From Cetorhinus maximus (taxonomy: Eukaryota): DNA of 64,000 bases. Both the position numbers and the translations under genes were made by a program. The stretch spans positions 12,090,001 through 12,154,000 of the forward strand of contig NC_135909.1 in NCBI RefSeq assembly GCF_964194155.1, written 5' to 3'. The notes under the pieces were generated by a model that was given only the letters and a program-made list of their open reading frames with translations, had not been told where the DNA came from and ran no database searches. Positions 1 through 53,630 of the stretch are shown piece by piece (position 1 is the first letter of the stretch; the number at the start of each line of letters is the position of its first letter).

Positions 1-262
1 CGGAGTGCAGTGAGTTCAGAGAGAGACAGATTAGAATGGGTGAGAGGAGCAGAGAAATTGAGACGGCTAATGTCACGCCGACAGTTCTCAATGAAAAGAT
101 CAAGAGAAGGTAAGAATCCAGAGGGAGGGGTCCAAGTGGAGGGAGAATATTGGAGGTGGGTAAAAGGATCCGTTGAACGGGGAGAGGACTCCTGCCCAAA
201 GAAGTGAGCACGGAGACGAAGACGGCGGAAGAAGAGTTCAGCATCATGCCGAGCCCGAAATT

Positions 263-1486
263 CATTTCTCCTTTAACTCCTCTCACTTCCTCCAAATAAA
301 AGGTGTGGCTATGGGTACCCGCATGGGCCCCAGCTATGCCTGTCTCTTTATGGGGTATGTGGAACATTCCTTGTTCCAGTCCTACTCCGTCCCCCTCCCA
401 CAACTCTTTCTCCGGTACATCGATGATTACTTCGGTGCTGCTTCATGCTCTCGTCGGGACCTGGAAAAATTTATTAATTTTGCTTCCAATCTCCACCCCT
501 CCATCATCTTCACATGGTCCATCTCTGACGCTTCTCTTCCCTTCCTTGACCTCTCTGTCTCAATTTCTGATGATAGACTGTCCACCAATATCCATTACAA
601 GCCTACCGACTCCCACAGCTACCTCGACTACAGCTCCTCACACCCCGCTTCCTGTAAAGACTCCATCCCATTCTCTCAGTTCCTTCGCCTCCGTCGCATC
701 TGTTCTGATGACGCTACCTTCAAAAACAGCTCCTCTGACATGTCCTCCTTCTTCCTTAACCGAGGTTTTCCATCCACGGTCGTTGACAGGGCCCTCAACC
801 GTGTCCGGCCCATACCCCGCGCATCCTCCCTCACGCCTTCTCCTCCTTCCCAGAAACATGATAGGGTCCCCCTTGTCCTCACTTATCACCCCACCAGCCT
901 CCGCATTCAAAGGATCATCCTCCGCCATTTCCGCCAACTCCAGCATGATGCCACCACCAGACACATCTTCCCTTCACCCCCCTTGACGGCATTCCGTAGG
1001 GATCGTTCCCTCCGGGACACCCTGGTCCACTCCTCCATCACCCCCTACTCCTCAACCCCCACTTATGGCACCTCCCCATGCCCACGCAGAAGATGCAACA
1101 CCTGCCCCTTCACTTCCTCTCTCCTCACCGTCCAAGGGCCCAAACACTCCTTTCAAGTGAAGCAGCATTTCACTTGCATTTCCCCTAACTTAGTCTACTG
1201 CATTCGTTGCTCCCAATGCGGTCTCCTCTACATTGGAGAGACCAAACGCAAACTGGGCGACCGTTTTGCGGAACACCTGCGGTCTGTCCGCAAGAAAGAC
1301 CCAAACCTCCCTGTCGCTTGCCATTTTAACACTCCACCCTGTTCTCTTGCCCACATGTCTGTCCTTGGCTTGCTGCATTGTTCCAGTGAAGCCCAACGCA
1401 AACTGGAGGAACAGCACCTCATCTTCCGACTAGGCACTTTACAGCCTTCTGGGCTGAATATTGAATTCAACAACTTTAGATCTTAA
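263..1486 (+). CDS. PLE reverse transcriptase (C-terminal half) plus GIY-YIG endonuclease, 5'-truncated, no internal stops
   Basis: Motifs QIKGVAMGTRMGPSYA, RYIDDYF, LPFLDL, YKPTDSHSYL, CPRRRCNTC, VYCIRCSQCGLLYIGET, RFAEH, GLN. The first 30 codons of track ORF 173..1486 come from the inverted segment. Confidence 0.93.
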   Translation, partial: HFSFNSSHFLQIKGVAMGTRMGPSYACLFMGYVEHSLFQSYSVPLPQLFLRYIDDYFGAASCSRRDLEKFINFASNLHPSIIFTWSISDASLPFLDLSVSISDDRLSTNIHYKPTDSHSYLDYSSSHPASCKDSIPFSQFLRLRRICSDDATFKNSSSDMSSFFLNRGFPSTVVDRALNRVRPIPRASSLTPSPPSQKHDRVPLVLTYHPTSLRIQRIILRHFRQLQHDATTRHIFPSPPLTAFRRDRSLRDTLVHSSITPYSSTPTYGTSPCPRRRCNTCPFTSSLLTVQGPKHSFQVKQHFTCISPNLVYCIRCSQCGLLYIGETKRKLGDRFAEHLRSVRKKDPNLPVACHFNTPPCSLAHMSVLGLLHCSSEAQRKLEEQHLIFRLGTLQPSGLNIEFNNFRS

Positions 1487-1832
1487 ACCCCCCTCCCCCC
1501 ATCCCCACCCCGTTTCTTTTCCCCCCCCACCCGCCTTTTTTTTCAATAATTTATATAGATTCTTCTTTCCCCACCTATTTCCATTATTTTTAAATCTAAA
1601 ACTAAAACCTTTAGTCTTTCCACCCCACCCCCACTAGAGCTGTACTTTGAATATCCTGTCTTGCATTCTTAATTAGCACTTTTCTCAGACAAAGACCACC
1701 ACCTTCAACACCTCTTTGACCCTTTTGTCTCTGACATCTTTTGATTATCTGCTCACACCACACCCTCAATGTGTCTCTTCCCCCCCACCCACCTTAAACC
1801 AATTTATATTTCTCCCTTGTTGAAACTATGCT

Positions 1833-1876
1833 TCAGTTCTGCTGAAGGGCCATGAGGGCTCGAAACGTTGACTGAT
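1833..1876 (+). ncRNA. Minimal type I hammerhead ribozyme motif (PLE-associated), variant core CUGCUGA
   Basis: tcagtt-CTGCTGA-a-gggcc(atgag)ggctc-GAAA-cg-TT|gactga. Helices I and II pair; helix III is the short ACGU palindrome. Confidence 0.8.
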
Positions 1877-2099
1877 TTCTTCTCCGCCGATGCTGCCAGA
1901 CTTGCTGAGTTTTTCCAGGTAATTCTGTTTTTATTTTGTTTTGGATTTCCAGCATCCGCAGTAGCTTTTAGCTTTTTGTTATTATCAGATGCATTCCATT
2001 TGGTCCCACTGACTTATCAACATTAAGCACAGCCAGACCTTCTAGTACCTCTTCTTTAACATGGGTTACATGTAAAATAAGTAATTTGCAAATTGTCGA

Positions 2100-3850: not shown

Positions 3851-4959
3851 GGAAATTTTCAGACTTAATCAAAATTGATACTGAGCTATTACAGTCCTTT
3901 CCCCAGATTTTATTGGATTGATGAAGAAATAGGATTCAGGAAAGGGAGCAGGACTTTTCCTTCCCTTTCACTCTCCGGATTTACAGTGGCTGAAAGAGCA
4001 ACCGGAAAAGTTAAAGGTGATGGAGCAGGAAAAAAATAACATTGACCTTGCGGAAAACATTTAGTTTGACATTTTCTTGATAAGTTCAGTGAGTGAGCAA
4101 GTTTTAGTAAATGACGTTTAAAATGAAGGGCCATCTAATTAAACCTATGAAAGATAGAAAAGGTTGTTTATTTTTGTGGTGAGATGCTTGAAACTGTGGA
4201 GGAGCCGAGAGAGATGTACAGACATCATTAAAAGCCAGTGGACAGGAAGGTAAAAATTATGCCTAAGGCTAATAGAATACGAAGTACTGGGTTTATTAAT
4301 CCTGTGATGAACAAACCTGCTCCGTGTTACAAGCATTTTCTGTGATTTAAAAAAAAAATCAGGTGACAATTCTTCATTGAAATACAGGAAATGCTGTTCA
4401 AACTGTACTTTCATGAGCTGTGAAACAAGAAAATCCCAATTTCCGCACATTTTGAAGCCAAGCGGGAGGAGATACCTGTTTCTCAATGATCTGATATTGG
4501 AGTTGATGAAGAAGGTTTTCTGAAGATCAATATGTTCCTTTTTGAAGCCCGGGAGGGGTTTGGTTTTCTATATTAAACTTTGGCCCTTGAGTAAGTTCTT
4601 TGTGTGCAGCTGTTTCTGGTGGTGTTACTGAGTCAGGAATGTTGGTCAGGGTAGCAGGAGAATTCACTGAGCTTCTTCAATAGCGCTAGGCAATTTTTCA
4701 TCACTTCAAAAACCTGCCACCAGTTATTGGTCAGGATTACACAGAAGTGGTACACCGAGGATATTTACTTACAGAAATCAATACTTTACAAAGAAATAAT
4801 TACTTCTTGTCATGAAAGTATTATAGTTTTCATAATATTTTTCTGGCTTATTGTGAAGTAATTTTATGGGGTAAGTATAGTTGGGTCTTTCTGTGTGTAA
4901 TGTAGTTACATTTGGAGTCAAGTAGACTGATAGTTTAAACTCATCCAAAGAAGTTAGGT

Positions 4960-5356
4960 TGAATATCTTGTCTTCCATTCTTAATTCCCACTAGAGCTGT
5001 ACTTTGAATATCCTGTCTTCCATTCTTAATTAGCACTTTTCTCAGACAAAACACCTCTTTGACCCTTTTGTCTGTGACATCTTTTGATTATCTGCTCATC
5101 TCCACAATCACCACACCCTCGATGTCTCTCTCTCTCCCCCACCCCCCACCACCCCCCCCCCAACCCACCTTAAACCAATTTATATTTCTCCCTTCTTCTA
5201 ACTATGCTTCAGTTCTGCCGAAGGGCCATGAAGGCTCGAAATGTTAACTGATTTCTTCTCCGCCGATGCTGCCAGACCTGCTGAGTTTTTCCAGGTAATT
5301 CTGTTTTTGTTTTGGATTTCCAGCATCCGCAGTAGCTTTTAGCTTTTTGTTTTTAT
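4960..5356 (+). mobile_element. Solo PLE 3' terminal region with hammerhead (5209-5251) and 13-bp TSD
   Basis: Near copy of 1630-1985. Flanked by aaagaagttaggt at 4947-4959 and 5357-5369. Confidence 0.9.
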
Positions 5357-6284
5357 AAAGAAGTTAGGTGCTTGACATGCGAATGAGTAAACATGGAAGC
5401 TGGGTTAGCATGTAAGGTGTGAAGGGAATTTGCATTTTTGGATAAAGGAAGGGATATTTGCATTTCAAAGGGATCTCAGTCAGTTTACAACTAGCCAGAT
5501 AAGCAAGGCTAAGGAATATGTTTATTTTTCCCAAAGGTTACTGGAAATAGTGGCGACATGGAAGTTTTTTCTATATTGTGAACAAGATACAATTTCAACG
5601 ACATATGGGACTTTAGAATTTACATATTAAAAAGAGAGAAACATACATAAAGGAGAATGAAAGGTTATGTTGGAAAAGGCCATTTAAAACCTAACAGGAG
5701 TGTGTGAAATGGCCTCAATGAAGCCTCCGGCATTTTTACGTAAGTCTGCTGTCGAACTAAATGGGAGTTGGAGAAAAGCCAAAAGGCATTCCACTGTCCA
5801 GGGTATTGTGTTAACTTGCTGAGTCTGCTTTAATTCTAAAATCTATTTCAGACCTTCAAAGGAGTGTAACTAGGGGGTCAGGTTAATTAGTAACTTGAGG
5901 AGTTATTATGGTACTATTTGTAGTCTTATGTATGTGCTTGACATCTTTTACTTTTAATAAACATATTAATTTCATTTTTAAAATTTCTAAATGTCCTGTC
6001 AGACCTATTGCTCCTGAATTCAGTGCATGCATCTCGTAATGAATACAAATTTCAAAACCTTTGAGATAACATGACCAAGCATCCCTCGTGGATTTGGTCC
6101 ACCTGGTACACATCATCTGCCACGTCATTACAGTCCCTCACACACTCCGGTCAATTAACACCTGAACTCTTTATTGCTGATGGATTTCTTGTCATTTTGA
6201 ATCCCACCTGAGTTGAGTTTTAAGTCAGATTTCATGTTTTCTGGAAAATAAAACTGATTCAGGGAAAAGGAACAGGCACTTTCT

Positions 6285-23819: not shown

Positions 23820-24221
<402 letters not shown>

Positions 24222-24267
24222 TCACAAATAATTTCACAAAGAATGAGGAAATGCGCTCGCATTCGCT

Positions 24268-24475
24268 TCTCTTATAGCTTCGGGAGGAATGGTGCTGCGG
24301 GCATTGCTGATTGGTCACTTTGTTGCTGCATCTCATAATGTTGTTCACATCACCAATCAGATATCTACTGAACTCACCAATCCGGAGACTCTACGGATGA
24401 GGGCGGAAAATTACGGCGCCAAATTTTGAGATTCCAACTGATTTTTCTTTCAAATTTTAAAAGCCCGCCAAATTT
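24268..24475 (-). promoter_or_regulatory. H2A copy 1 promoter (TATA, CCAAT x3, E2F/CHR-like sites)
   Basis: ctataag ~24272; attgg/ccaat ~24310, 24353, 24377; ggcgccaaa ~24415; gcccgccaaa ~24463. Conserved at 43095-43300. Confidence 0.75.
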
Positions 24476-24523
24476 GTAAAAAAGAAGCCAAAAAAAAAAC
24501 GGACGAACATAGTACTAATTGGA

Positions 24524-24611
24524 TAAAAGCAAAATACTGGTGATGCTGGAAATCTGAAACAAAAATACCTGGAAAAATTCATCTGCGGAGAGGAACAAAG
24601 TTGACGTTTCG
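24524..24611 (-). mobile_element. 88-bp PLE 3' module insertion with 13-bp TSD
   Basis: agtactaattgga at 24511-24523 and 24612-24624; a single copy of the site in the paralog near 43048-43061. Confidence 0.88.
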
Positions 24612-25352
24612 AGTACTAATTGGAAATGGTTATTCAGTATTTAGTATTCGAATGTTATATTCACTTCATCTCTCTCTCTTTCCCTGGACTACATTTTTTT
24701 GTATATTTCAGTTTTTGATTTTCTGTCTGGGTTTATGTGTATCTGAAAACAAGTCGAAAATAACGGCGCAAACTTATGGAATTTTTTTTTTTATTCGACA
24801 TCGAAATTACCTCCGATATATTTATAAAACAAGAAATACATTTCATATAGAAAATCCAGCTAATAGTGAACACGGTCTGACGACAAAGTTTTACAAATGT
24901 CCGTCCCTGATGGGACTATTTCACATTTTATCCTAAATTCCAGATCCGCTTTAAGAATCCGGCATCAATTCGAGATAATCTCGATCCGTCATGAAACCTT
25001 CTTAGCAGCCGGCTGAAAGTGCCATTTACATCGTTCTGCTGATAGACGGGAAATTGTAGATATTTGTGACAGCCAAAATTGAACATACTTGGAGTAAATT
25101 TGCCAGCGTCGAGACTGAAGGTTGCTACACAACCGGTGCTTACAGGAAATGAACTGATCGATTATTGAGGCCAAACTTGATCCAAATTGGAAACTGAATC
25201 ATTTACGTTCTATTCGCTCTCTCTCCAAAACCAGGGAAAGGGGTCGAATATGACGCGTCTTAAAACAAAGCGCAGAGGGTGAGCGGCAAGTCATTAATTT
25301 ATGGGGCATCATTAACGAGACCCAACAATTGAACGAGAATTAAATCTACATT

Positions 25353-25480
25353 CACGTGAGGGAGAGGTCGAGTGTGTTCAGTTCTGCCGAAGGGTCATAA
25401 AGACTCGAAACGTTAACTGATTTCTTCTCCACCGATGCTGACAGACCTGCTGAGTTTTTCTAGGTAATTCTGTTTTTGTT
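25353..25480 (+). mobile_element. 128-bp PLE 3' module with hammerhead (25378-25420) and 13-bp TSD
   Basis: ttaaatctacatt at 25340-25352 and 25481-25493; tcagtt-CTGCCGA-a-gggtc(ataaa)gactc-GAAA-cgTT|aactga; empty site near 42593-42605. Confidence 0.9.
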
Positions 25481-25589
25481 TTAAATCTACATTACCGAGA
25501 ATCTCTGATTGAAACGTGATCAAAATAACAATTTCACAATTCGAAATGCTTCATAGCTAAAACATAAATTTAGAAGTAATGAAATCATA

Positions 25590-25630
25590 TAGCTTTTTCA
25601 GAGAGATTGTGGGTGGCTCTTAAAAGAGCC
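25590..25630 (-). terminator. Histone stem-loop and downstream element (H2B copy 1)
   Basis: Reverse complement GGCTCTTTTAAGAGCC at 25615-25630, ACCCA, then gaaaaagct. Confidence 0.95.
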
Positions 25631-25657
25631 GTTGTGTTATGAATCAGTTCTGGGGTT

Positions 25658-26032
25658 TTACTTGGAGCTGGTGTACTTGGTCACCGCCTTTGTCCCTTCC
25701 GACACGGCGTGCTTGGCCAGTTCCCCGGGCAGCAGCAGGCGCACGGCGGTCTGGATCTCCCGGGAGCTGATGGTGCTGCGCTTGTTGTAATGGGCCAGGC
25801 GGGAAGCCTCACCCGCGATGCGCTCGAAAATATCGCTCACGAACGAGTTCATGATGCTCATGGCCTTGGAGGAGATGCCGGTGTCGGGGTGAACCTGCTT
25901 CATCACTTTGTAGATGTAGATAGCGTAACTCTCCTTCCTCGACTTTCGCCGCTTCTTGCCGCCTTTTGCTACCGGTTTCTTTAAGGCTTTCTTGGCTCCC
26001 TTCTTAGGAAGTGGTTTCTTCTCATCAACCAT
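25658..26032 (-). CDS. H2B: Histone H2B, copy 1
   Basis: 124 aa [15 protein letters not shown]...[27 protein letters not shown]...[10 protein letters not shown]; ATG at 26032. Confidence 0.98.
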
Positions 26033-26074
26033 CGTCACTTTCAGACACAGAATAAAACAAACTCCTTCCGAGCG

Positions 26075-26235
26075 CCGATTAAATAGACAGTCTGACAGAC
26101 CTATGCTAATGAGGAATGGGGAAACAATGATTGTGATTGGTTATTTAAAAGAATACAACAGCCAGTTATTTTGTACTTTTCTCTGATTGCATATTTAAAG
26201 ACAACAAACAAATTTCGACTTCTCCACCAATCATT
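26075..26235 (-). promoter_or_regulatory. H2B copy 1 promoter with octamer variant ATTAGCAT
   Basis: TATA-like tatttaa ~26078-26084, atgctaat 26103-26110, CCAAT boxes ~26136 and 26227. Same layout at 41830-41985. Confidence 0.75.
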
Positions 26236-42035: not shown

Positions 42036-42413
42036 ATGGTTGATGAGAAGAAGAAACCAGTTGCTAAGAAGGGCGCCAAGAAAGCGGTGACTAAACCGGC
42101 AGGAAAGGGCGGCAAGAAGCGGCGAAAGTCGAGGAAGGAGAGTTACGCCATCTACATCTACAAAGTGATGAAGCAGGTTCACCCCGACACCGGCATCTCC
42201 TCCAAGGCCATGAGCATCATGAACTCGTTCGTAAACGATATTTTCGAGCGCATCGCGGGTGAGGCTTCCCGCCTGGCCCATTACAACAAGCGCAGCACCA
42301 TCAGCTCCCGGGAGATCCAGACCGCCGTGCGCCTGCTGCTGCCCGGGGAACTGGCCAAGCACGCCGTGTCGGAAGGGACAAAGGCGGTGACCAAGTACAC
42401 CAGCTCCAAGTAA
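42036..42413 (+). CDS. H2B: Histone H2B, copy 2
   Basis: 125 aa [37 protein letters not shown]...TSSK; ATG at 42036, inside track ORF 41832..42413. Confidence 0.98.
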
Positions 42414-42452
42414 AACCCCAGAACTGACTCAAAAACAGATTCAAAACACAAC

Positions 42453-42493
42453 GGCTCTTTTAAGAGCCACCCACAATCTCTCTGAAAAAGCTA
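42453..42493 (+). terminator. Histone stem-loop and downstream element (H2B copy 2)
   Basis: GGCTCTTTTAAGAGCC at 42453-42468, ACCCA, gaaaaagct. Confidence 0.95.
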
Positions 42494-43348
42494 TACGATT
42501 GCTCCACTTCTAAAGTTATGATTTTTACTGTGAAGAATTTTGAATTATCTAATTGTTATTTTCTTTTTGTTTCAATCACAGCGATTCTCGGTAATGTAGA
42601 TTTAACCCTCGTTCAATTATTTAGTCAGGTTAATAATGCCTCATCAATTAATGACTTGCCGATTACCCTCGGCGCTTTGTTTGAAGACGCGCGCGTTAAT
42701 ATTCGGCCCCTTTCCCTGGTTTTGGAGAGAGAGAGAATAGAAGCAAATGCGTCAGTCTCCAGTTCTGGTCAAGTTTGGTCTCAATAATCGATCAGTTCAT
42801 TTCCTATCAGCCCCGGTTGTGAAGCAACCTTCAGTCTCAACGCTGGCAAAAATGGTCAGTTTTGTCTGTCATAAATATCTACAATATTCCGTCCGTTTGC
42901 AGAACGATGTAAATGGGACTTTCTGCGGCTGCTGACAGGGTTTCATAAAGGATCGAGATTCACCCCCGGATCACGGATTCTAAAAGCGATTTGGAACATT
43001 GGATAAAATGTGAAATAGTCCCATCAGGGACGCGTATTTTTAAAACTTCCAATTCGTACTATGTTCTAAGAAGTCCGTTTTATTTCATTTTTAAAAAATT
43101 TGGCGGGCTTTTAAAATTTGAAAAAAGATCGGTTCGAATCTGATAATTTGGCGCCGTTATTTTCCGCCCTCACTCCGTGGAGTCTCCGGATTGGTGAGTT
43201 CAGTAGATATCTGTTTGGTGATATGAACAACATTATGAGACGCAGCACAAAGTGACCAATCAGCAATGCCCGCAGCACCATTCCTCCCGAAGCTATAAGA
43301 GAAGCGAATGTGAGAGGATTTCCTCATTCTCTGTGAAAGTGTTTGTGA

Positions 43349-43750
<402 letters not shown>

Positions 43751-51574: not shown

Positions 51575-51646
51575 TAGCGGAGAATGGTTTCGATCCATCG
51601 ACCTCTGGGTTATGGGCCCAGCACGCTTCCGCTGGGCCACTCTGTT
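51575..51646 (-). tRNA. tRNA-iMet: Initiator tRNA-Met(CAT) gene with 4 substitutions, probably a pseudogene
   Basis: AACAGAGTGGCCCAGCGGAAGCGTGCTGGGCCCATAACCCAGAGGTCGATGGATCGAAACCATTCTCCGCTA. Initiator ATCGAAA T-loop; two acceptor-stem mismatches, one D-stem mismatch and one T-stem G-U pair; TTTT downstream. Confidence 0.9.
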
Positions 51647-51702
51647 ACTTGGACATGATTTGCTGCTACGTCAAGATGATTTGCTGCTACATCTTGTTGT
51701 GT

Positions 51703-51812
51703 AACTGATTTCTTCTCCGCCGATGCTGCCAGACTTGCTGAGTTTTTCCAGGTAATTCTGTTTTTGTTTTGGATTTCCAGCATCCGCAGTAGCTTTTAGC
51801 TTTTTGTTTTTA
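51703..51812 (+). mobile_element. PLE 3' module starting at the hammerhead cleavage position
   Basis: aactgatttcttctccgccgatgctgccagac...agcttttagctttttgttttta, near-identical to 5246-5355. Confidence 0.88.
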
Positions 51813-52194
51813 TCTTTGTGTTTGAGCAATGTTCATTCTTTTTTTGTTCAACAAGAGCACACGTATTCGGTGGCTCCCCCTGGCGACTCAATTCCACTTT
51901 GCAACACTCCCAAGAATGTAACAGACAGAGGACGACACAGAAGAGCAGTAAGAGACTGCCCGCACGCAAGACGATAGGAAGGCAAAGGAGCATGGAGTGA
52001 ATCACCATTAATGTAAAGGCGTTCTCTCTTGCATAAATATGTTCCACATTCGTAACGAATTTGCTGTTGACTAAATTAGCTCCCTGTGCATGTGTACTCT
52101 TGTTGAAATGTGTTGCGGTGTTTTAAGTGCTTTCCCGTTTTTTAAAAATATCTTCCCTGCTGTGCAACTTTGCTGTCTGCTTGGAACTGTGTTT

Positions 52195-52939: not shown

Positions 52940-53630
52940 TAGCCTCTGGTCGTGAATTTGATTGTGGGATACATATCATGTCCATCAAACTCTTACTGTA
53001 TGTGAGCGAGATTTGTTCTGTATCTGTCAGTCACAGGTAGTGTCTCTGAGTGTAGGATTCATTCTGTATCTCAGTCTGTGGGACAGTTTGTGAGATAAAG
53101 GCAAAATACTGTGGATGCTAGAAATCTGAAACAAAAACAAAAAATGCTGGCCTGACAGCATTTACGGAGAGAAAGACAGAGTTAACGTTTCGAGTCCATG
53201 TGACTGTTCTTCAGAGCTGAAGAAGAGTCAGACTGGCTCATAACGTGAACACTGTCTTTCTCTCCACAGATGCTGTCTAGCCGACTGAGTCTTTCCAGTT
53301 TTTTATTTTCGTTTTGTTTTTGGACAGTTTGTGAGAGTGGGATTCCTTCTTTATGGGTCAATGTCTGGTACTGTATGTGAGGGTGGGATTAATTCTGTAT
53401 CAGTCATTGGCACAAAACGTCAATGTGTGAATCATTCTGTATTTATAATTTCTCATTACTGTTAGGGAAAATGGGATTAATCCTGTATCTGAATGTCTCT
53501 GGTATTCTATGTGAGCTTTGGCAGCATTATTCAGCACTCAGTTTCCCATACTTTGTGGGAGTTTGGAATTAATTTTGTTTCAGTGAGTGGTATTGTGTGG
53601 AAAGTATGATTCATTCTGTGTTGCTCAGTC
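52940..53630 (+). repeat. Degenerate satellite, plus orientation
   Basis: Recurrent gggattaattctgtatc...tgtgag. Confidence 0.75.
53096..53321. mobile_element. Head-to-head pair of PLE 3' modules with 15-bp TSD
   Basis: ggacagtttgtgaga at 53081-53095 and 53322-53336; centre ttcttcagagctgaagaa. Confidence 0.88.

What the first reader, a model, noticed from the sequence alone, without database searches (positions are those of the whole stretch)
24511..25493. Hammerhead mini-modules inserted as stand-alone units: 13-bp TSDs and empty sites in the twin cassette
Seen: two tiny non-coding PLE 3' modules (88 bp minus, 128 bp plus with a complete hammerhead fold) sit between H2B and H2A, each with an exact 13-bp TSD. 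The inverted paralog has single, unoccupied sites (~43048-43061 and ~42593-42605). The window holds at least 14 related modules, with exact TSDs of 13, 13, 13 and 15 bp and several 3' junctions ending TTTATC. Known: PLEs carry hammerheads and retrozymes are non-autonomous hammerhead retroelements; TSDs are not regarded as a consistent PLE feature. Inference: ribozyme-processed short RNAs are mobilised by the Neptune RT/GIY-YIG with a fairly fixed cut stagger, i.e. a shark retrozyme-like system. This is my best candidate for an under-described system here.
Basis: partly seen in the sequence, partly recalled or inferred. Interest (0 to 1): 0.75.

Follow-up and report, generated by a model that had tools for sequence, protein, structure and literature searches.

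The report
Penelope stubs record symmetric 14-base cut
These two tiny insertions in a histone gene cluster are real short copies of a very common Penelope-type jumping gene, not a separate ribozyme-cut element, and related copies across the genome carry a target duplication peaking at 14 bases at mirror-symmetric sites, which likely means the enzyme cuts both DNA strands and copies its RNA from both cut ends.

Summary
Both modules and both exact 13-bp TSDs are real. The empty site is clean for the 128-bp module and ambiguous for the 88-bp one.

The retrozyme reading fails. The 128-bp module starts with an exact, inverted 23-nt piece of the ORF from 2.8 kb upstream in a 3.3-kb Neptune-type Penelope element. 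223 of 239 sampled arms span the hammerhead cleavage site, and genome-wide at most 1.8% of copies start there. The core is non-canonical (A6C).

The fixed-stagger idea holds, but for the whole family (52 bp to 3.1 kb). 59 of 80 two-armed insertions have 13-16-bp TSDs (mode 14), against 18 of 86 one-armed ones. Their landing sites are two-fold symmetric, and the two arms end at different RNA sites (73 of 78). 5' ends peak 33-35 nt upstream of the cleavage site, at a TATA/Inr-like start.

Best reading: a symmetric ~14-nt staggered cut, reverse transcription from both ends on uncleaved element RNA, and frequent run-off or truncation. This scan already noted the symmetric cut in another genome and the hammerhead-edge start in this one. 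I did not find these features in print in 8 searches.

The parts
24511..24523 (.). TSD1, left copy (13 bp); primed end of module 1
   Evidence: exact repeat
24524..24611 (-). Module 1: one-armed short copy of the element's pLTR end, from 9 nt upstream of the hammerhead cleavage site to tail site B, with an internal deletion; older subfamily
   Evidence: present in 30 of 30 paralogs fetched
24612..24624 (.). TSD1, right copy; its first 3 bases also match the element (microhomology at the 5' join)
   Evidence: sequence read directly
25340..25352 (.). TSD2, left copy (13 bp)
   Evidence: empty paralogs
25353..25357 (.). 5-nt filler that does not match the reference element
25358..25380 (-). Inverted 23-nt exact copy of the element's ORF (2830 to 2807 nt upstream of the cleavage site); short second arm, joined by microhomology
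   Evidence: blastn 100%; direct match
25378..25480 (+). Module 2 main arm: starts 37 nt upstream of the cleavage site and ends at site A (no tail); 97% identical to the young family
25379..25419 (+). Minimal type I hammerhead motif with A6C core; predicted cleavage between 25414 and 25415; predicted Inr +1 at 25380
   Evidence: cleavage site and +1 are inferred
25481..25493 (.). TSD2, right copy
42593..42605 (-). Clean empty site for module 2 in the inverted cassette
43048..43060 (-). Single copy of TSD1 (1 mismatch); ambiguous, because ~260 bp of adjacent sequence are also absent
1..1986 (+). Long two-armed copy of the young family (inverted piece 1-266; direct piece 264-1985 with RT C-terminus, GIY-YIG, hammerhead and tail)
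4947..5369 (+). One-armed ~400-bp copy with 13-bp TSD
53081..53336 (.). Two-armed insertion, one arm to site B and one to site A, 15-bp TSD

Best explanation
The two modules are short insertions of an abundant ~3.3-kb Neptune-type Penelope-like retrotransposon, likely made when its RT/GIY-YIG protein cut a two-fold symmetric DNA site with a ~14-nt stagger and reverse-transcribed uncleaved element RNA from the cut ends. Shown: element identity, two fixed 3' ends (site A about +66 and site B about +100/110 from the cleavage site), a TSD mode of 14 in two-armed copies, symmetric flanks, A/B pairing of the arms, a 5'-end peak at -33 to -35, and no peak at the cleavage site. Inferred: the cut leaves 3' overhangs, and each end primes its own cDNA, one from B and one from A or further inside. 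Two cDNAs joined head to head keep the full ~14-bp TSD. When only one end is copied, the other is trimmed and joined by microhomology, giving a TSD of 8-14 bp or none. Many very short copies likely arise when priming occurs in the transcript's 5' pLTR and RT runs off the RNA's 5' end at a TATA/Inr-like start. Module 1 is a one-armed B product that lost about 1 bp of a 14-nt site. Module 2 is an A product whose second end primed 2.8 kb inside a long RNA. The ribozyme is carried as passenger sequence and did not define these ends.
For: Full-length unit in partial tandem with RVT_1 and GIY-YIG hits (both below Pfam's curated cut-offs). 29,340 exact hits of a 37-mer and 5,964 of a 48-mer from the module-1 subfamily. 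TSD of 13-16 bp in 59 of 80 two-armed vs 18 of 86 one-armed events, Fisher p 7e-12; none longer than 16; nulls 0 of 430 and 0 of 223 at 12 bp or more. Among 39 two-armed events with 14-bp TSD: purine at -3 in 38, pyrimidine at +3 in 37, both in 36; purine at -7 in 34 and pyrimidine at +7 in 35. The discovery set gave 25/25 and 25/25, the validation set 12/14 and 13/14. Arm ends: A+B 73, A+A 3, B+B 2, and 17 with one internal end, of 95. The tail-less arm reaches at least 10 nt further 5' than the tailed arm in 28 of 65, so it is not a fold-back copy of it. Genome-wide stepwise loss of 3.9%, 7.7% and 4.2% at -34, -35 and -36 vs 1.8% over two bases at the cleavage site; 27 of 30 inspected losses at -35 are true junctions (the script flagged 26 and I reassigned one by eye). 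TATA-to-A distance of 29-30 nt in 141 of 149 copies that keep both motifs. In vitro, an anole Poseidon protein cleaves and extends both strands, starts RT at two internal sites, and does not need ribozyme cleavage (PMC11167929).
Against: No biochemistry and no raw RNA reads: the start site, the overhang polarity and any dimer are inferred. 35 of 86 one-armed and 8 of 80 two-armed events have no detectable TSD. The test that short-TSD one-armed events still show the second half-site 14 nt away held in discovery (21 of 25) but not in validation (2 of 6). Measured TSD lengths are upper bounds because of microhomology, and both modules here have 13, not 14. Module 2's site fits the motif only partly. 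The -33 to -35 peak covers only about a tenth of ribozyme-bearing arms; most 5' ends are spread out. The cap-G test was inconclusive: G in 574 of 1,104 purines at -36, several explicable by the inverted arm. The sample comes from one contig (C1) and was selected by exact patterns, so it favours young copies.
Confidence: 0.75

Rival explanations
1. Retrozyme-like system: ribozyme-cut short RNAs or circles are mobilised in trans as a separate non-autonomous family.
For: Hammerhead motif, short median length (344 bp; 43 of 166 events are 200 bp or shorter), exact TSDs. Animal retrozymes are related to PLE pLTRs and reported in one chondrichthyan genome (10.64898/2026.07.22.740005). One window copy (51702) starts at the cleavage site.
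Against: 223 of 239 arms span the cleavage site and 3 of 166 events have two same-strand ribozymes. Breakpoints within 5 nt of the site: 7 of 155 and 0 of 79. 1.8% loss genome-wide. ORF piece in module 2. No fixed monomer length. A6 is absent in 168 of 186 fetched cores (sample partly selected for pyrimidines there).
Confidence: 0.05
2. Ordinary one-strand target-primed RT with random 5' truncation; inverted arms come from fold-back or self-priming; TSD length is unconstrained.
For: PLE TSDs are described as short or variable (8, 9, 10 bp or none in Adineta, PMC3846280; 'variable length', PMC9977147). Self-priming was proposed for head-to-head repeats. One-armed events do show broad TSDs, and several junctions are palindromic.
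Against: Sharp mode at 14 and no TSD over 16; symmetric half-sites; A/B pairing in 73 of 78; the tail-less arm is often the longer one (28 of 65).
Confidence: 0.12
3. Same two-ended mechanism, but the 5'-end cluster at -33 to -45 reflects RT stalling or cDNA-cDNA annealing in the self-complementary ribozyme region, or a splice acceptor at the AG at -35/-34, rather than the transcription start.
For: The cluster is strongest in two-armed events, many junctions are short palindromes, and a second small cluster lies at -41/-42. In D. virilis an intron ends at helix I (PMC4209133).
Against: Conserved TATA-like box 29-30 nt upstream of an Inr-like word across subfamilies. One-armed copies also start at -34/-35 (L166, L235, L245, L249). 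Bases upstream of the junction do not share an exon end.
Confidence: 0.3

Closest known systems
EN+ Penelope-like elements, Neptune clade; insertion unit with pLTR, inverted 5'-truncated copy and one-sided tail (PMC8557442 and PMC3846280, passages seen)
   Same: Single RT plus C-terminal GIY-YIG ORF, Cys linker, partial tandem, minimal hammerhead in the pLTR, heavy 5' truncation, head-to-head inverted arms, tail at one end, short TSD, TATA plus Inr-like pLTR.
   Different: Here the TSD is sharply 13-16 bp (mode 14) in two-armed copies, the target is two-fold symmetric, the A/B pairing is nearly strict, and 5' ends peak at -33 to -35. I did not find these quantified in the passages or searches seen.
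Anole Poseidon (PAc) in vitro system (PMC11167929, parts 1-2 of 4 read)
   Same: Both strands cleaved and extended, two internal RT start sites bounding the tail, ribozyme cleavage dispensable, predicted dimer.
   Different: [quoted passage not shown] Here the two ends almost always use different sites. Its supplementary figures were not seen.
Animal non-LTR retrozymes (10.64898/2026.07.22.740005, parts 1-3 of 5 read)
   Same: Type I hammerhead derived from PLE pLTRs; mostly non-coding.
   Different: Defined by tandem units each with a complete ribozyme. These modules are single, of variable length, span the cleavage site, and one contains ORF sequence.
L1 twin priming (recalled; no call)
   Same: The second nicked strand primes internally on the RNA and gives a 5' inversion inside one TSD, as in module 2.
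   Different: Here the second arm usually starts at a fixed site and overlaps the first arm in sequence.

Membership tests
EN+ Penelope-like element | Single ORF with RT and C-terminal GIY-YIG | tested here: met
   857-aa frame in L143: RVT_1 E 4e-06, GIY-YIG E 0.00096, both under curated cut-offs
EN+ Penelope-like element | Partial tandem forming pLTRs | tested here: met
   L143: truncated copy followed by a full ~3.3-kb unit
EN+ Penelope-like element | Minimal type I hammerhead in the pLTR | tested here: met
   Helices I and II, palindromic stem III, variant core; activity not tested
EN+ Penelope-like element | Optional tail at one end and inverted truncated copy | tested here: met
   Sites A and B; 80 of 166 events two-armed
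Neptune clade | CX2-5CxxC linker between RT and EN | tested here: met
   C-X4-C-X2-C in the translated ORF; motif from PMC8557442, where a linker motif is also given for Nematis
Neptune clade | RT phylogeny groups with Neptune | not tested
   No reference set was fetched and no tree was built
Non-LTR retrozyme | Tandem units each with a complete hammerhead | tested here: not met
   Both modules are single; 3 of 166 events have two same-strand ribozymes, all complex PLE insertions
Non-LTR retrozyme | Unit ends set by ribozyme cleavage; discrete monomer | tested here: not met
Non-LTR retrozyme | Self-cleavage and circular RNA in cells | not testable with these tools
   Only assembled contigs were served

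The most novel reading that the evidence does not exclude
Penelope-like elements integrate by a concerted, two-ended reaction unlike LINE target priming. A protein dimer makes a 14-nt staggered double-strand cut at a two-fold symmetric site (purines at -7 and -3, C at -5 and -1; mirrored on the other side). Each end is committed to a different RT start on the RNA (site A or B), and strong-stop-like run-off copies from the capped, uncleaved 5' pLTR produce thousands of ribozyme mini-insertions. This would explain the one-sided tail and the inverted pLTR in one step.
Probability: 0.5. Interest if true: 0.7.

Novelty: new member of a known kind. Interest (0 to 1): 0.5.

Why it matters
How Penelope-like elements integrate is still open: the in vitro paper read here (PMC11167929) leaves the later steps unvalidated. 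This genome holds tens of thousands of young copies whose junctions give exact predictions for a biochemical test: the target motif, the 14-nt offset, which RNA site each DNA end uses, and where the RNA starts. It also warns that solo hammerhead hits in such genomes are mostly PLE stubs, not retrozymes. The two modules themselves are ordinary passengers of a duplicated histone cassette, useful as markers of its history.

Tried and rejected
Rfam scan: no hammerhead family hit in the window.

RNA evidence: only Logan contigs were served, 4 of 22 listed runs were laid, and contigs cannot show starts, ends or circles; uninformative.

Cap-G test: inconclusive. The splice or back-splice origin of the -34 end was judged only from 60 junctions, with no shared exon end; a genome-wide junction count was not run.

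Folding z-scores of the modules are unremarkable (0.26, -1.33, 0.67, 0.06).

The inverted/simple flags printed were wrong (library contained inverted arms) and were replaced. One search stopped on a script error and was rerun.

Rows dropped: L058 (same event as L057) and L250 (duplicate of L249); 3 discovery and 3 validation events cut by locus ends; 18 hand-picked validation events were left out of the pooled 166 but used in the arm-end, fold-back and motif counts.

A clean empty site for module 1 with both flanks was not found. No dimer prediction, protein homologue search or tree was run.

Lunse et al. on PLE hammerhead variants was not held; only its title was seen. PMC5718144, PMC12910113 and PMC6765202 passages gave no PLE TSD length.

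Full report
Observation. The modules lie between an H2B gene (frame 25658-26140, minus) and an H2A gene (23820-24221, minus). Both 13-bp duplications are exact. The inverted cassette has a clean empty site for module 2. At module 1 it has one copy of the word with a mismatch but also lacks the next ~260 bp. The cassette is repeated at least 40 times, nearly all on contig C32. Of the 30 best paralogs, all carry module 1 (the query included it), 12 carry module 2, and 18 do not. Each module is therefore one insertion later multiplied with the cassette, and module 2 is the younger.

The element. Relatives extend into a ~3.3-kb unit with one RT plus GIY-YIG frame, a C-X4-C-X2-C linker and a partial tandem. 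This is a Penelope-like element, Neptune by motif (PMC8557442, passages; no tree). A 37-mer downstream of the ribozyme has 29,340 exact matches and a 48-mer of the module-1 subfamily has 5,964. Positions below are relative to the predicted cleavage site. 3' ends fall at two sites, A (about +66) and B (about +100/110). The stretch between them is the known PLE tail, which in vitro lies between two RT start sites (PMC11167929, parts 1-2 of 4). Module 1 ends at B, module 2 at A.

Test of the ribozyme idea. A cleavage product would start at 0. Module 1 starts at -9 and module 2's main arm at -37. Module 2's first bases are an exact inverted 23-nt copy of the ORF at -2830 to -2807, so its template was a long element RNA. 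I censused the first 100 hits of the 37-mer (82 events) and the first 30 of the 48-mer, with 108 resolvable after dropping 1 duplicate and 3 cut events. I then added 80 new loci, 76 resolvable, of which 58 were taken in list order and 18 hand-picked. Breakpoints within 5 nt of the site: 7 of 155 and 0 of 79. 223 of 239 arms span it, and 3 of 166 events have two same-strand ribozymes. Genome-wide, 26,295 of 26,786 copies that start at 0 continue through -2. The core of module 2 is CUGCCGA. Only 18 of 186 fetched cores keep A6 (partly selected). A6C is a known natural variant that shifts metal preference (PMC7151607, abstract only), so activity is open. In the anole element, ribozyme mutants insert normally. 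Retrozymes are defined by tandem ribozyme units (preprint 10.64898/2026.07.22.740005, parts 1-3 of 5); that test is not met. Solo minimal hammerheads were already read as truncated PLEs (PMC4209133, parts 1-2 of 4), and de novo Chlamys insertions have a median of 128 bp (PMC9977147, passages).

TSD length. In the pooled 166 events, 80 are two-armed (head to head, 3' ends outward). Their TSDs are 14 bp in 33, 13-16 bp in 59, 8-12 bp in 13, and none in 8. The 86 one-armed events have 13-16 bp in 18, 7-12 bp in 33, and none in 35 (Fisher p 7e-12). None exceeds 16. Swapped-flank controls reach 12 bp in 0 of 430 and 0 of 223; 7-10-bp calls overlap the null. The 13-16 class occurs at all sizes: 13 of 15, 32 of 42 and 14 of 23 two-armed events at up to 200, 201-600 and over 600 bp. 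So the stagger belongs to the family's enzyme, not to a mini-module class. Published PLE TSDs in the passages seen are 8, 9 and 10 bp or absent in Adineta (PMC3846280), present without a length in D. virilis (PMC2377424), and 'variable'. TSDs in PLEs are thus known; the narrow length is what stands out.

Symmetry and arm pairing. In 39 two-armed events with a 14-bp TSD, position -3 is a purine in 38 and +3 a pyrimidine in 37; -7 and +7 follow in 34 and 35, and C at -5/-1 with G at +5/+1 is enriched (the -1/+1 positions are affected by how the TSD is delimited). The pattern was seen in the discovery set (25/25, 25/25) and held in validation (12/14, 13/14). One-armed events with 8-12-bp TSDs had the pyrimidine 17 nt from the primed end in 21 of 25 discovery but only 2 of 6 validation cases. 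Module 1's site fits a 14-nt cut at -7, -3, +3, +5 and +7; module 2's fits at -7 and -3, and at +3 only for 13 nt. Arms end A+B in 73, A+A in 3 and B+B in 2; 17 have one internal end, 15 of them opposite B. The tail-less arm runs at least 10 nt further 5' in 28 of 65 and lacks the tail, so neither arm can be a simple fold-back copy of the other in those cases. In 5 of 42 events the two arms differ in the core dinucleotide, which may mean two template RNAs or later mutation.

5' ends. They are not random. 31 of 155 fall at -31 to -45 and 15 of 79 at -30 to -46 in validation. Genome-wide counts fall from 29,507 to 28,345, 26,161 and 25,057 on adding bases -34, -35 and -36. The largest step (2,184 copies) is mostly true junctions (27 of 30). 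The two pattern families differ, so the baseline is approximate. A TATA-like box lies 29-30 nt upstream of the A at -35 in an Inr-like word in 141 of 149 copies that keep both; Penelope transcription is known to start in the pLTR. Run-off at the transcription start is my best reading (about 0.55); the cap-G test was inconclusive and no raw RNA reads were served.

Mechanism. Shown: end positions, TSD distribution, symmetric flanks, A/B pairing, the ORF piece in module 2. Inferred: a coupled pair of nicks about 14 nt apart with 3' overhangs, priming from both ends on uncleaved RNA, joining of the two cDNAs or trimming of the unprimed end, and run-off at the RNA 5' end. A dimer is the simplest way to get a symmetric site and a fixed distance; it was predicted for the anole protein and was not tested here.

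Novelty. The element and its layout are a known kind. Eight literature searches showed no report of a fixed 14-bp TSD, a symmetric target or strict arm pairing for PLEs. Older primary papers, Repbase entries, Lunse et al. and the supplementary figures of PMC11167929 were not seen and may bear on this. Earlier notes of this scan reached parts of the same reading, on this and another genome. My TSD, pairing and 5'-end results came before and the symmetry result; those notes are not counted as support. Verdict: observation mostly right, retrozyme reading wrong, stagger right and sharper than proposed. Interest 0.5.

Noticed in passing
G000:C32, about 8.9-21.3 Mb; window 24200-25700 and 42380-43380: At least 40 copies of this H2B-H2A spacer; module 2 marks a clade of 12 of the 30 fetched, two of which share a 10-bp deletion in the ribozyme (L067, L068). 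The modules are usable markers of histone-cluster duplication history.
   Followed up: partly
window 24625-24880: About 260 bp present in cassette A and absent in cassette B, with no other match in the window; origin unknown.
   Followed up: partly
L134, L136, L286: Complex insertions in which several successive segments each stop at -41/-42 and then jump template; a second discrete 5' end besides -34/-35.
   Followed up: no
all fetched copies: Position 6 of the hammerhead core varies by subfamily (U, C, A), and the 97%-identical young family has A6C with GUU, suggesting relaxed or altered ribozyme function in recently active lineages.
   Followed up: partly
window 51702-51823, next to the tRNA-like hit 51575-51646: The one window copy that starts at the cleavage site (-1); no TSD found; preceded by a short duplicated stretch.
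   Followed up: no
L121, L127, L139, L225: Apparently one-armed copies carry short or stuttered inverted tail fragments at their 5' join, like aborted second arms.
   Followed up: partly
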